Below the pieces are notes generated by a model. The model ran no database searches. It was not told where the DNA came from and was given only the letters and a program-made list of their open reading frames with translations. From the NCBI RefSeq assembly GCF_004010195.1, contig NC_057719.1, positions 40,587,073-40,651,072 of the forward strand: a stretch of 64,000 bases of DNA, given 5' to 3'. This document shows positions 7,364 through 49,857 of the stretch, piece by piece (positions within the stretch are counted from its first letter, which is position 1; each line of letters begins with the position of its first letter). The position numbers were made by a program, and so were the translations under genes. This DNA comes from Chiloscyllium plagiosum (Eukaryota).

Positions 7364-7434
7364 ACCCAGCTAGCTCAATCAGTAGAGCATGAGACTTAAT
7401 CTCAGGGTGGAGAGTTCAAGCCCCATGTTGGGTA
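7364..7434 (+). pseudogene. tRNA-Lys(CTT)-derived pseudogene
   Basis: acccagctagctcaatcagtagagcatgagact--taatctcagggtggagagttcaagccccatgttgggta matches vertebrate tRNA-Lys-CTT, with a 2-nt anticodon-loop deletion and CpG decay. Confidence 0.85.
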
Positions 7435-8090: not shown

Positions 8091-8365
8091 TTGCTGGTTG
8101 TCATATTTCTGTTATAGCTCACATCTTGTTAGGATCTGGACAAAATCAATTCACTGTCAGTACATGACCCATGTGCTTAATTCCAGTCACCTGCAATTGA
8201 AGGCTTTTTTTAATTCATCCTTTCTGTTTATTTAGTGAGCTTTCTCTTGCAATCCTATTAGATTCTGATTGTTGCCTGTGATGACTTCTTCCACTGTATC
8301 TCCACACTCACAAAATAACAAAATCGAAAATAGCTTCCCTTCTGAGAAGGTTACTAACTATTCTC

Positions 8366-15452: not shown

Positions 15453-15599
15453 TTTAACTTGACCAATTTCCTAACTGGGTCAATAATTTGCCTTCAGTTT
15501 CACAAGCTTGAAATTTGGCTACCAGTTGGCTATCATTAATGGTAAAGCTTCTCTCAAGCCTCCAGGAAGTTCACATAAATAATGTCCCTGTCAGTATTC

Positions 15600-16870
15600 T
15601 GTTTAACTCTGTTTGTGGAGAATATGATGCTAATTAAGTGGGTGTTTTATCCAGGATGATGTCAAACAATTTGTGTTGTGTTGTAACAACACTCATCCAG
15701 GCAACAGGATTAATACAATACCATTTTAATTGATGCTTGGTAAATGGTGAAACAATTTTGAGGATTAGAAGGTGAATCATTTGCCACAGAATACTTCCCT
15801 CTGGCCAAATCTTGTAGCCAGGTTTCTTACCAATGATGGTCCTTAGTATGATGGTTCTGAATATTCAGTGATGCTAATGCTGTTAAATATCAGGTCGAGG
15901 TGTTCAGACTCCCATGTTGAAGATGGTCATTCCCTGGCAATTATGTAGTGTAAATGTAACTGGCCACATACAACCCATGCCTGAATGTCATCTAGAGGCA
16001 AATTGTTCATTAATTTATGAGTTGCAAATAAAATGAAATATTGTGCAATGATCAGTGAACATCCTCCTTTCTGACCTTAAGATGGAGGAAGGGCTAATGA
16101 AGAAGCTGCAGATAGCTGGGTGTGGAACACTGCCCTGGAGAATTTCTGAAATGATATTGTCAAGCCGAGATCCCAATAATTACAAGTCGTCATCTTTTGT
16201 TCATCTTTTGTGCTGCATGTGGCAACAATCAAATCCCCTTTTTCCCATTGACTTCAACTTTCATAGGTCTCTTTGAGGGACATCCCTGATGAAGGGCTTG
16301 TGACCGAAATGTCAACTCTCCTGCTCCTCGGATGTTGCCTGACCTGCTGTGCTTTTCCAGCCTCACTCTTTTTGACTCTGACTCTTCAGCATCTGCAGTC
16401 CTCACTTTCTCCCAATGGATATCAAAAGGCAGTCACTGAGTTAGACTGAATACTGACAGGGAAATATCTATGGATGTTATTAATGTGAACTTCCTGGAGG
16501 CTTGAGAGAAGATTTACTATTAATGACAGCCAACTTGTAACCAAATTTCACCACAGCTCTGGAACTCCTTGATTCACCTCTTTTGTCCATGTTTGAACCA
16601 AGGCTACAATAAGATCTCGATGTGAGTTGCCCTGCTAGAATCCAAACTAGGGAGCAGTGGTCTGGTTATTTATCAGAGGAGTTTGGAAACCTCATTTTCC
16701 ACATCTTCTGTCATCTTGGTGATGATTCGAGAATTAACTGATGGGAGATAATTGGCCAGATTTGATTGTCTCTCTTTTTGTGGGCAGAACTTAACTAGAT
16801 AATTTTCACATTGCTAAGTAGATATTGATGTTCTCCTTTATTGGAATAGCTGATTAGAGATACAGCTACT
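15600..16870 (-). mobile_element. Degenerate LINE of the same family as 52918-54200, interrupted by a PLE fragment
   Basis: Shared stretches (tgaatatcaagg, attgtgcaatgatcagtgaacatcc). Confidence 0.6.
16283..16412 (+). mobile_element. PLE terminal fragment, family A, single arm
   Basis: ctgatgaagggcttgtgaccgaaatgtc core (16286-16313) followed by the family A tail. Confidence 0.8.
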
Positions 16871-42360: not shown

Positions 42361-42530
42361 GGAGCAAGTGAGGACTGTAGATGCTGGAGATCAGAGGTGA
42401 GAGTGTGGTAGTGGAAAAGCACAGCAGTTCAGGCAGCATCTGAGGAATGGGAGAATTGATATTTTGGGCAAGAGTCCTTCATCAGGAGCTCCGATGAAGG
42501 GCTCTTGCCCGAAATGGCGATTCACCCGCT
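42361..42530 (-). mobile_element. PLE fold-back element, family A, right arm cut by a LINE
   Basis: cttcatcaggagctccgatgaagggctcttgcccgaaa centre. Confidence 0.8.
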
Positions 42531-43440: not shown

Positions 43441-43637
43441 GCGTGTGTAGGGATGGGTAATAAATGCTAGCCGAGCCAGTGATGCCCACAAACCATGAAG
43501 GAGTATCAAAAAAAAATTGTGGTTACAGAAGCAATGTATACTGGCTGCTGGTATGCTAATAGAAACAGATGATTAATCTCAGTTTTAGTTTAACACATAC
43601 AATATTAATCTCAGCATTAATTTCAGAACAGACTGTG

Positions 43638-43774
43638 AACTAATTTGTCTCTAAGTGGTTCTACTCAAAATAGGTCCTAACTGTGTAAGTCAAAATTGCA
43701 AAAGATCAAATCAGTGTTGGGATGCAATTTATATTAATTTATCCAGGCCAAGAAAGGGTTTTTGTTTGATGGTT
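43638..43774 (+). repeat. Left arm of a diverged ~137-bp inverted repeat
   Basis: Reverse complement aligns with 45327-45464. Confidence 0.9.
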
Positions 43775-44394
43775 TTAAAATGAAAACATTAATTTACTAC
43801 ATGTCTGTAATTTGATACATCAGTTTTGAATGCTGCCTGGTTAGCATTATCTAGTTTCTAGTCAGGAGCTGCCATTTCAAATAGAGGAGGAGCACGCTTT
43901 ATATTGTCAGTATAGCTTATTGCATTTGTGAAATGAGTTGCTGATCAGGAGAAACTTGATGTACATGATGCTTTCTGAACCAAAATATGGCCCAACCCTG
44001 CTGAACAGCAGCTGCCATTACATTCTTTCTGGATTTTGGGGGTGGGGTGGAGGGTGAGAAGTCAGTCAGTGTTGAACAAACAAGTCCATCAGCTACCCTG
44101 CATACTGAAACCTTGTTCCCCCTTATAACTTTGTGTGCTTTTGGGGGGAGTATTTGCATTTAAATTAATTTACAAAACCATGATAAAATTGATATGCTCA
44201 AAATTTAAAGAGTTGACGGTATATGATGAAAATGCTTTGACTTGAAATGAATAACTTGAACGTTCTCACCTGTAATTATCTTGTGACATAATCTGTACCA
44301 AGAAGTATAGGAGAGACTATTTCTCCTCGCAGGTGGAAATCCTATGGATCACGTGAAATTACCTGAGCTGGCAGTTTTACATATTAGTGGAATA

Positions 44395-46010
44395 AACGAG
44401 TAAGGAACAAATGTAGACCACTCACCTCTTGAGCCTACCACCCCCCACCAATTCAATAAGATCATGGTTGATCTCGTTTTGACCTCAACTCTATTTACCT
44501 CTGCTTTTAAAAATTTTAAGATTCTGCATTCATTGCCTTTTGAGGAAGTGAACTCTGAAGGCTTATCATCATTGGAGAGAATTTTTTTCCACATATCTGT
44601 ATTAAATGGGTAACCCCCTATTTTTAAATTGTGACCCCGAGTTCTCGATTCATCCACAACAGGAAACATCCTTTCCACACTTTTCTTGTCAGGTTCCTTC
44701 AGGTTCTTATTTGTTTCAATTAAATCACCTCTGACTCTTCTAACCTCCAGAGTATACAGGCCTAGCCTCTCTAGCCTTTCCACATAAGCAATCCTCTCAT
44801 CCCAATCTAGTAAGCCTTCTCTGAACTGCTCCCAATACATAGTTATCCTTCTCTTCCTACTTTGTACACAATACTCGAGATATAGTTTCACCATTGCCCT
44901 CTATAACTGAAGCACAACCTTCTTATTCTTGCATTTGATTTCCCCTTGCAATAAAACATAATTTTCTAGCTTTCCTGATGAGTTGCTGTATCCTTCTATA
45001 CTTTTGTGATTTATGGACTTGGAATACCCAGCCCACTCGACACCTCGGAGCTCTGCAACCTCTCACTATTTATATAACATGTTTTTGTATTCTTTCTGCC
45101 AAAATGGATAGTTTCACACTTTCCCCCATTATACTGATTTTGTCAGATCTTTGCCCATCCACATAACACATCGATATCCCTTTGTAGACTCCTTATGTCT
45201 TTGTTATAGCCCACTTTCTTACATATCTTTGTGAAGAATTGAGGGCCCATCACTGATCCCTATAGCACACTGTGCATGACATCTTGCCTGCCCGAGAAAC
45301 ACCCATTTATTCCTACTCTTTGCTTCAACCATCAAAAAAAATCCCTTTCTTGGCCGAGATAAATTAATATAACTTGCATGCGAACACTGATTTTGATCTT
45401 TTGCAAAATTGCCTTACAATGTTTGGATCCGTTTTCAATAGAACTACTTCGAATCAAAACAGTTAGCCGAACAATCCTCTATCCATGCCAATATATTACT
45501 CCCAATGCTGTGAGTATTTATTTTCTGTGATAACCTTTGATGTGGCACCTTCTCAAATGCCTTCTGCAAATCTTAGTGTAATACATCCACTAGTTCCTCT
45601 TTATCCAAAGAACTCCAATAAATTAGTTGAACATGCTTTCCCTTGGTCAAAATGATGCTGGCTCTACCTGATTACATTGAACTACTTCAAGTGTAAGATC
45701 TTTAATAACAGCTTCCAACATTTTCCCTCTGACAGATGTTAAGCTAAATGACTTGTGATTTCTTGCTATCTGCCTCCCTCCCTTTTTAAAGGAGTCACTG
45801 TGGCTATTTTACAATCCGAAGGAACCTTCTCCAAATCTAATGTGTTTTGGAAATTTAAAATCAACACATTAACTATCTTACTAGCTATTTATTTCAAGAC
45901 CCAGGGATGAAATCTATCAGGATGTAGTACTTGTGAACTTGCAGTTCCATCAATTCATTCAGTATTACTTCCCTGGTAATTGTAACTTTCTTGAGTTTCT
46001 CCTTCCTTTT
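44395..46010 (-). mobile_element. Old CR1 RT and 3' end
   Basis: LEYCVQ..RGDLIET..RTRGHNLKI ORF. Confidence 0.85.
45327..45464 (-). repeat. Right arm of the inverted repeat, inserted into the CR1 fossil
   Basis: CR1-like sequence stops at ttgcttc (45326) and resumes at agcc (45465). Confidence 0.9.
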
Positions 46011-48728: not shown

Positions 48729-48739
48729 TGTCTAGTGTT

Positions 48740-49073
48740 GGAGGAGGTGTGGGATCCGCGCAGCGTGACTGTCTCCAGCTGGGAGGAGGTGTGGGATCCG
48801 CGCAGCGTGACCGTCTCCAGCTCGGAGGAGATGTGGGATCCGCGCAGCGTGACCGTCTCCAGCTCGGAGGAGGTGTGGGACCCGTGCAGTGCGACCGTCT
48901 TGAGTTTGGAGGAGGTGTGGGACCCGTGCAGTGCGACCGTCTTCAGTTTGGAGGAGGTGTAGGACTGCGCAGCGTGACCGTCTTCAGTTTGGAGGAGGTG
49001 TAGGACTGCGCAGCGTGACTGTCTTCAGTTTGGAGGAGGTGTGGGACCCGTGTAGCACGACCATCTCGAGTTC
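48740..49073 (+). repeat. GC-rich 41/42-bp minisatellite, 8 copies
   Basis: Units start at 48740, 48782, 48824, 48866, 48908, 48950, 48991 and 49032. Confidence 0.97.
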
Positions 49074-49857
49074 GAAGGTGGCGATGCCAGTGGCAGGAAA
49101 GGAGCACATTGCCAGGACCCTAGGGATGGTGTCGGATGGTGGCAACTAGACGAGCAGAGTGGGTGAAGGACAGCGAGGGAAAGATTAACATTTGAAGCTG
49201 TTTCAGTTTTAGTAATATCAATTAAATATTAATGTATTCAGTATTTTATCATTTATACAATTCAGTCATTTGTTCTGTAGTCCAAGGTAGTGCCAGAATG
49301 TGACAACATTACACGCTTTTCACTGTACCTCGGTAAAGGACCAAATAAATAAATAAATCTTTCTACTTATTTTGAGACTCTGAGCATCTCTGCTTTATTT
49401 TAGCACAGGTAGAGAGGTAGGCAGCTTGCCATATTTAACAGAATTGAACAATAAAGGGGATGGACATGTTGCTATATGGTATTATGCTTTGATACTTCCA
49501 CATCCATAGTATGTGTCAGCATCTCATACTGCAAACACAATGCATTTGCTTTAACCCAATGGCCATGCTTGAACGTTGAAGGGGGCCAGGCTTTAAAAGA
49601 GTCAAGGGGGATTACAGTCAGTCAAGGGGTACCGGTGCAATCAACAATGGGTGTGTCCGATTCCTACTCAGGAGACTTTATCAGGGCCTGTCTGCTGCTT
49701 GTCCCACCACTATTTGTGGATCATTGTCTTTCCTATCTAGAGATTTGGTTACCCTCAGACCCTCAGGTCATGTCTGACAAGTTGAGGGATTGTAGAACTT
49801 TGATCTGGGGTTGTAAATCATGCTCAGTAAAGGCTGTCCACATAAGTCCAGTCTGGA

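What the first reader, a model, noticed from the sequence alone, without database searches (positions are those of the whole stretch)
43638..45464. Diverged ~137-bp inverted copy of nearby unique DNA pasted into a CR1 fossil, with an abnormal mutation spectrum
Seen: 45327-45464 is the reverse complement of 43638-43774, ~1.55 kb away. My hand alignment of the ~123-bp core gives 19 substitutions and 1 indel (~84% identity), about 13 of them transversions. The right copy has four CpGs; the left has none. It interrupts CR1 almost cleanly, with gtt microhomology, no TSD and no tail. Ordinary vertebrate decay is transition-rich and loses CpG, so age alone fits poorly. Inference: error-prone templated insertion, two members of an unrecognised small element or ncRNA family, a long-range RNA stem, or an artefact.
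Basis: seen in the sequence. Interest (0 to 1): 0.7.

Follow-up and report, generated by a model that had tools for sequence, protein, structure and literature searches.

The report
Old backwards DNA patch in sharks
A 137-base piece of unique DNA was long ago copied backwards into a dead retrotransposon 1.5 kb away, an ordinary kind of DNA-repair scar; its only oddity is more transversions than usual, which may be chance.

Summary
45327-45464 is an inverted copy of 43638-43774 (113 identities, 8 transitions, 16 transversions, 1 gap; E 4e-31). It interrupts a decayed CR1 reverse-transcriptase frame in register, with 0-2 bases lost, a 3-base microhomology at one junction, no TSD and no tail. It is not an artefact: single contigs span the insert and both flanks in 4 of 4 runs from three species about 3-4% apart. 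Both arms lie at single-copy depth, so a high-copy repeat is excluded. No ncRNA or selected stem was found. Best reading: an old microhomology-primed templated insertion, a known class, which then aged (K2P 0.20, about 5-7 times the species split). The transversion excess is real but modest (p 0.0008-0.02 by background; 0 of 65 control blocks as low) and was picked after the fact. The CpGs add little independent evidence: one of four is recent and one is decaying. Changes since the split look ordinary (7 transitions, 4 transversions). There is no Pol-zeta doublet signature. Error-prone copying at birth, or later patchy repair between the arms, is not excluded (about 0.2 together). Interest is low.

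The parts
43638..43774 (+). Donor arm: unique, AT-rich (33% GC) non-coding DNA, left intact
   Evidence: Single-contig depth in 4 of 4 runs (table 2); only one self-hit in the window; no Rfam match at gathering score
45327..45464 (-). Inserted inverted copy of the donor (133-138 bp depending on how the right junction is parsed)
   Evidence: 81.9% identity, E 4e-31; absent from CR1 paralogue contigs, present in orthologous contigs of species A, B and C (tables 5c and 8)
45462..45464 (+). 3-bp microhomology (GTT) shared by the donor end and the CR1 flank; inferred priming site
   Evidence: Junction contexts; paralogue junction letters (table 5c)
44430..45326 (-). Host CR1-type LINE fossil, 3' part (end of RT domain, C-terminal ORF2, 3' end); outer limit approximate
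   Evidence: tblastn with window CR1 peptides; paralogue depth up to about 1000-fold over single copy in several bins (table 2)
45465..45990 (-). Host CR1 fossil, 5' part (RT domain, truncated, stops and frameshifts); outer limit approximate
   Evidence: tblastn hits 45474-45828; blastn hit to 45991; the query peptide is RVT_1-like (E 1.9e-5, below the Pfam cut-off)
43526..44260 (.). Slowly diverging unique stretch that holds the donor arm (possible weak constraint; untested)
   Evidence: 10 A-vs-B differences in 735 bp against about 37 in 986 bp of the CR1 contig, Fisher p 0.0025

Best explanation
An old germline templated insertion, a repair or replication scar. A break or stalled fork inside an already dead CR1 left a 3' end finishing in AAC (minus strand). 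This end annealed by 3 bases to DNA about 1.7 kb away on the same chromosome, at the start of the donor. A polymerase copied about 135 bases, and the new end was joined back to the other CR1 flank almost bluntly, losing 0-2 bases. The copy became fixed before species A, B and C split, and the two arms have since drifted apart by ordinary mutation. The transversion-rich spectrum is then mostly a tail event picked out by the scan, helped by a few multi-base changes (for example one doublet that extends a palindrome). Shown: anatomy, direction of copying, presence in three species, single-copy state. Inferred: microhomology priming, a DNA template, insertion after CR1 integration, chance as the cause of the spectrum.
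For: In-register interruption of CR1. Homology stops at the insertion borders. Donor intact and single-copy. Microhomology or microdeletion without TSD or tail are the class 2 TSI and MMB-TI junction marks (PMC5110952; PMC8421209). Age suffices for the amount of change: arms K2P 0.20, species A-B 31/1036 and 43/986, host CR1 20 of 105 sites from the majority of distant window paralogues, with no listed paralogue piece longer than about 90 bp at 86% or more (table 8). Changes in the arms since the split are 7 transitions and 4 transversions. Differences show no base-specific pattern, and 6 adjacent pairs is not more than chance (P 0.18). A second local inverted pair lies in the same window. Earlier unchecked notes describe several 68-143-bp local copies in this genome, one called perfect; this is a lead only.
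Against: The spectrum is at the 0.1-2% tail: 0 of 65 control blocks of 24 substitutions at 70-95% identity had 8 or fewer transitions, and 1 of 24 at 60-70% did (the blocks are not independent). The second local inverted pair leans the same way (4 transitions, 6 transversions, or 5 and 3 under another alignment; pooled 12 of 34, p 0.0002-0.003). Substitutions cluster in the 58 columns next to the inferred priming end (17 against 7; permutation P 0.04). The post-split spectrum is not significantly different from the old one (Fisher 0.14). No orthologous empty site was seen. Only one junction has microhomology, and 3 bases can be chance.
Confidence: 0.68

Rival explanations
1. Same insertion, but copied by a very error-prone (translesion or Pol theta-like) polymerase, or over a damaged template, so that about 10-12 transversions (about 8% of bases) were present at birth.
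For: Transversion excess. Clustering near the inferred priming end. Same lean in the second pair. Pol zeta makes MMB-TIs in yeast (PMC8421209, passages), and multinucleotide mutations are transversion-rich (PMC4158752, abstract).
Against: 0 of 6 adjacent pairs are the Pol zeta types GC>AA or GA>TT. No doublet excess and only one indel. An 8% transversion rate is far above known polymerase error rates (recalled, not checked). Earlier unchecked notes call a young local copy in this genome perfect.
Confidence: 0.12
2. After insertion the arms occasionally pair (fold-back or strand invasion), and patchy mismatch repair copies donor bases into the insert, fixing transition-type mismatches better than transversion-type ones, so that transitions are erased and transversions remain.
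For: If the local tree is ((A,C),B), as 45428 and 45471 (and weakly 45272 and 44980) suggest, then 3 of 5-6 species-A changes in the insert (45341, 45415, 45448) went to the donor base (p 0.003-0.006). Half of the repeat is still 90% identical.
Against: The tree is unresolved: under (A,(B,C)) those three sites are ordinary derived changes. One of the three is a transversion. Three or four recent changes go away from the donor. Species-C-only rows were probably among the 82 rows cut. The mismatch-repair bias is recalled; one search listed 4 papers, none read.
Confidence: 0.07
3. The piece was captured while the CR1 was integrating: its reverse transcriptase jumped from CR1 RNA to local DNA or RNA about 0.65 kb from the target site, then returned.
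For: The host is a LINE, and its age is compatible with the arms' divergence, more so if the donor region evolves slowly. Earlier unchecked notes report local captures inside Penelope insertions in this genome. TSIs can be RNA-templated (PMC5110952).
Against: It needs a return to the same RNA register within 0-2 bases. For plus-strand cDNA the entry junction at 45326/45327 has no microhomology. There is no evidence that the donor is transcribed. It does not explain the spectrum.
Confidence: 0.08
4. Both arms are copies of a low-copy dispersed element, or the insert came from a third locus.
For: The 86% likeness cut would miss whole copies at about 82%; no genome was available.
Against: The old CR1 beside it gathers up to about 1000-fold depth at the same cut, while the arms, including a 67-nt part that is 90% alike, stay at about one contig in 4 of 4 runs. 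No terminal repeats beyond 3 bases and no TSD at either arm. No look-alike in earlier windows (that search needs about 90% identity).
Confidence: 0.03
5. A selected long-range RNA stem or a pair of small ncRNA genes.
For: If co-transcribed, the arms would still pair (113-115 bp in whole-span folds; about -140 kcal/mol). A sub-threshold SNORD34 match lies on the insert (19.6 bits, E 2.1).
Against: 98-99% of 300 neutral-spectrum simulations pair more stably than the real arms. Only 3 (+) or 5 (-) of 24 differences allow G-U. 0 of 11 listed post-split changes have a partner change in the other arm. Single arms fold no better than shuffles (z 0.96, 1.06, 1.07, -0.42).
Confidence: 0.015
6. Assembly artefact.
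For: The window has N gaps. No single contig spans both arms.
Against: One contig spans the insert and both flanks in each of 4 of 4 runs, covering three species and three studies (records 31, 7, 14, 23). In X2, overlapping pieces tile 43450-45700 with overlaps of 18-29 letters (table 8).
Confidence: 0.005

Closest known systems
Microhomology-mediated templated insertions (MMB-TI; MMBIR/FoSTeS-type switching), PMC8421209 (passages read)
   Same: Short insertion copied from a nearby template, inverted, microhomology at a junction, return to the original template, inherited in the germline
   Different: Template 1.55 kb away rather than within the 100 bp that study searched; fixed in three species and 18% diverged; only one junction has microhomology
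Class 2 templated sequence insertions (TSI/TSIP), PMC5110952 (parts 1-2 of 4 read)
   Same: No TSD, no poly(A), microdeletion and microhomology, donor intact, size within the 73-414 bp of the experimental inserts
   Different: Donor is local, not distant; present in every run laid rather than polymorphic; RNA origin not shown
Short-range template switches, four-point model, PMC7954356 (passages read)
   Same: Reverse-complement copy of local sequence that creates an inverted repeat
   Different: Those are within about 100 nt, median 12 and at most 128 nt long; this one is about 135 nt from 1.55 kb away
Pol zeta multinucleotide mutations, PMC4158752 (abstract read)
   Same: Transversion-rich, some adjacent pairs
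   Different: None of the 6 adjacent pairs is GC>AA or GA>TT, and pairs are not in excess

Membership tests
MMB-TI / local templated insertion | Insert copied from an intact template on the same chromosome | tested here: met
MMB-TI / local templated insertion | Microhomology at the switch junctions | tested here: inconclusive
   3 bp at one junction, 0 at the other; 3 bp can be chance and the junctions are old
MMB-TI / local templated insertion | Return to the original template in register | tested here: met
   0-2 bp lost (table 5c)
MMB-TI / local templated insertion | Template within about 100 bp (operational limit of the MMBSearch and four-point studies) | tested here: not met
MMB-TI / local templated insertion | Made by a translesion polymerase or Pol theta | not testable with these tools
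   No Pol zeta doublets among 6 pairs
Class 2 TSIP | No TSD or poly(A); end-joining-like junctions | tested here: met
Class 2 TSIP | Donor in a distant region | tested here: not met
   Donor 1.55 kb away
Class 2 TSIP | Polymorphic in the population | tested here: not met
   Present in 4 of 4 runs of three species; contigs show presence only, and few individuals were seen
Class 1 TSIP / LINE-made retrocopy | TSD of 5 bp or more and untemplated poly(A) tail | tested here: not met
Dispersed repeat (SINE/MITE) | Many genomic copies | tested here: not met
   Single-contig depth at 86% likeness; a few copies below 86% are not excluded
Dispersed repeat (SINE/MITE) | Terminal inverted repeats or tail, and TSD | tested here: not met
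   Only AAC...GTT (3 bp); no TSD
Known ncRNA (snoRNA or other Rfam family) | Score at the family's gathering threshold | tested here: not met
   0 of 5 weak matches reach it; best SNORD34 19.6 against 38 bits
Selected long-range RNA stem | Compensatory or G-U-preserving change between arms | tested here: not met
Selected long-range RNA stem | Both arms in one transcript | not tested
   No RNA run was laid

The most novel reading that the evidence does not exclude
Local inverted templated insertions in sharks carry a systematic transversion excess, either because they are born with several percent polymerase errors or because later arm-to-arm repair selectively erases transitions. Either would be an undescribed mutational signature, readable across hundreds of such fossils, and would bias the dating of small duplications.
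Probability: 0.17. Interest if true: 0.6.

Novelty: new member of a known kind. Interest (0 to 1): 0.2.

Why it matters
As a single neutral scar it matters little; it is a presence marker shared by three shark species. It would matter if the spectrum proved general: templated insertions appear to be frequent in this genome (two candidates in this window, several in unchecked notes), so they would give a natural, dated record of the fidelity of repair polymerases or of biased repair between inverted repeats in a slowly evolving vertebrate germline.

Tried and rejected
No whole genome is held, so genome-wide copy number rests on contig depth. No RNA holder was listed, and no RNA run was laid; this says nothing about expression. 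No orthologous empty site: joints that skip the insert have short sides (28-30 letters) and are read as CR1 paralogues. Gene context: a crude splice-site scan of non-repeat DNA printed 3 candidates, none near the arms, and 4 candidate frames gave no Pfam family; the locus may be intergenic or deep in an intron, which is unresolved. Foreign origin: 0 matches in metagenome contigs (one pattern) and plasmids. Polarising species differences with in-window CR1 paralogues failed: only 3 of 16 sites were covered. One search folded a span without the right arm and was not used. Palindrome gain in the insert (5 against 2 hexamers, P 0.04) was noticed after the fact and is not relied on. Dating in years from the epaulette-shark rate (7e-10 per generation from 5 mutations, PMC10587355, passages) was rejected, since it gives about 1.4e8 generations; only relative age is used. 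Paper searches: searches listed 0 papers; searches listed none whose title or abstract start treats transversion-rich decay of local inverted copies. These are weak searches of a partial library, so absence from print is not shown. One paper on breakpoint micro-insertions was not held. No supplements were read.

Full report
Observation. The inverted pair is real: 43638-43774 against 45464-45327, 138 columns, 81.9%, E 3.9e-31, arms 1552 nt apart. The alignment has 113 matches, 8 transitions, 16 transversions and 1 gap; CpG is 0 left and 4 right. Each arm has no other self-hit in the window.

Which copy is the insert. The right copy lies in a decayed minus-strand CR1-type LINE. A window CR1 peptide aligns to 45608-45474 (residues 9-53) and resumes at about 45331 (residue 54). 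CR1 paralogue contigs join 45326 to 45472 with 12 letters between, the same length as 45460-45471 (table 5c). So the insert is either 45327-45459 with nothing lost and one mismatch, or 45327-45461 with 2 bases lost and GTT shared with the donor. The left junction has no microhomology, there is no TSD, and the A-run near the start is templated by the donor. The donor is intact and flanked by single-copy DNA.

Read support and age. No genome was held. A run search listed 24 runs, 20 holding the stretch or part of it: 8 of organism A (0.60-0.91 of words) and 12 of organisms B and C (0.26-0.27). I laid 4 of the 24 (X2 = A; X10 and X11 = B; X18 = C) on 43450-45700 at 86% likeness. In 4 of 4, one contig spans the insert and both CR1 flanks (records 31, 7, 14, 23), and another spans the donor (records 25, 1, 9, 17). 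No contig spans both arms; in X2 four pieces tile the stretch with overlaps of 18-29 letters. X2 could be related to the assembly's source, but B and C are independent. The insert therefore predates a split of about 3-4% (31/1036 and 43/986 letters, A against B). The arms are 0.20 apart by K2P, about 5-7 times that split. The host CR1 is old enough: 20 of 105 sites differ from the majority of distant window paralogues, and the longest listed paralogue pieces at 86% or more are about 90 bp (table 8). No orthologous empty site was seen; the empty state is inferred from paralogues.

Copy number. Over the arms, depth equals or slightly exceeds the orthologous contig (bin 43678-43753: 5.4, 18.4, 31.2, 6.6; bin 45350-45425: 5.0, 27.4, 31.9, 7.6), while most CR1 bins reach hundreds to over ten thousand (table 2). 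A large family would have piled up on the 67-nt part that is 90% alike. A few copies below 86% are not excluded. No look-alike appeared in earlier windows, metagenome contigs or plasmids.

RNA readings. Rfam gives only a tRNA-like hit at 7364 in the window; 0 of 5 weak local matches reach gathering score. Single arms fold no better than shuffles. The arms could still pair if co-transcribed (113-115 pairs, about -140 kcal/mol), but 98-99% of 300 neutral-spectrum simulations pair more stably. Only 3 or 5 of 24 differences allow G-U, and none of the 11 listed post-split changes has a partner change. A transversion excess is the opposite of what a selected stem gives. No nearby exon was found, and expression was not tested.

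The spectrum. Against window repeat pairs the transition fraction is 0.68, 0.67, 0.60 and 0.53 at 86-95, 78-86, 70-78 and 60-70% identity; 8 of 24 has p 0.0004, 0.0008, 0.008 and 0.04. 0 of 65 blocks of 24 substitutions at 70-95% were as low, and 1 of 24 at 60-70% (blocks share sequences). Against orthologous differences (26 of 36 transitions) Fisher p is 0.004, non-CpG 0.014; against all places (47 of 85, 53 of 93) it is 0.06. So the skew is real at about the 0.1-2% level. The finding was selected for this skew. With 178 windows read in this genome and two such pairs in this one, a few hundred pairs may have been in view, and one at p near 0.003 is then about an even bet (inference). The CpGs add little. 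4 or more occur in 7% of all 138-bp windows and 1.9% of GC-matched ones, but in 23% of random 8+16 change sets on the donor, a null without CpG decay. The CpG at 45355-45356 exists only in A (B and C have the donor base), and that at 45430-45431 has a C>T change in X11. Listed changes in the arms since the split are 7 transitions and 4 transversions, an ordinary mix but not significantly different from 8 and 16 (Fisher 0.14). 82 rows were cut, probably including C-only changes. Against error-prone birth: no doublet excess (6 pairs, P 0.18), 0 of 6 of the Pol zeta types named in PMC4158752 (abstract), no base-specific pattern. For it: 17 of 24 substitutions lie in the 58 columns by the inferred priming end (P 0.04), and the only other local two-copy inverted pair in the window, 15509-15612/16435-16550, has 4 transitions and 6 transversions (5 and 3 under another alignment; pooled 12 of 34, p 0.0002-0.003).

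A loose end. The local tree is ambiguous. A and C share non-ancestral bases at 45428 and 45471 (weakly 45272 and 44980), while B and C share non-donor bases at 45341, 45415 and 45448. If A and C are sisters, three of A's five or six changes returned to the donor base (p 0.003-0.006), which would hint at patchy conversion between the arms. If B and C are sisters, the oddity moves to the other sites. In-window paralogues could not settle it.

Mechanism. Most likely a microhomology-primed templated insertion: a minus-strand 3' end finishing in AAC primed on the donor, about 135 bases were copied, and the end was rejoined nearly bluntly. Anatomy, direction, age order and copy number are shown. Priming, the DNA nature of the template, the enzyme and timing after CR1 integration are inferred. 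Capture during CR1 reverse transcription is possible but needs a return to the same register and an entry without microhomology.

Comparison with known classes. It works like the germline MMB-TIs of PMC8421209 (passages) and has class 2 TSI junctions (PMC5110952, parts 1-2 of 4). It fails their operational limits on distance and polymorphism, so I file it under the general kind, not those named sets. It exceeds the range of short-range switches in PMC7954356 (passages). Local copy-and-paste jumps with inverted junctions are also described in cancer genomes (PMC7025897, passages). Earlier AI notes on this genome list similar local copies of 68-143 bp at 0.7-1.4 kb; I did not check them, and they serve as leads only.

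Verdict. A real, old, single-copy repair scar; new member of a known kind; interest 0.2. The most novel reading not excluded is a general transversion-rich signature of such copies (probability about 0.17, interest 0.6 if true), testable by a genome-wide survey and an outgroup.

Noticed in passing
window 15509-15612 and 16435-16550: A second two-copy local inverted pair, about 820 bp apart (E 3e-26), with a 12-bp gap and 4 transitions/6 transversions; probably another templated insertion. Direction and copy number not tested.
   Followed up: partly
window 43526-44260: Unique DNA around the donor differs between species A and B at 10 of 735 sites, against about 37 of 986 in the CR1 contig and 10 of 165 just to its right (p 0.001-0.003); possible weak constraint or local rate variation.
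   Followed up: partly
window 45272-45471: Conflicting species-tree signal within 200 bp: sites favouring (A,C) are interleaved with sites favouring (B,C).
   Followed up: partly
window 44862, 43976, 45445: The window lacks 10 letters at 44862 and has private bases at 43976 and 45445 relative to all four runs laid: private alleles or assembly errors.
   Followed up: no
window 48738-49081: Tandem repeat (unit about 42 bp by eye) whose copies differ almost only by transitions (38 of 43), with long open frames on both strands.
   Followed up: no
window 7364-7434: tRNA-like match (37.4 bits); tRNA gene or SINE head not distinguished.
   Followed up: no
window 42449-42527, and related copies at 8365, 16281, 28282, 29554, 34839, 35473, 36044, 58339: A family of short palindromic insertions, resembling the Penelope-end fold-backs in earlier notes.
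   Followed up: no
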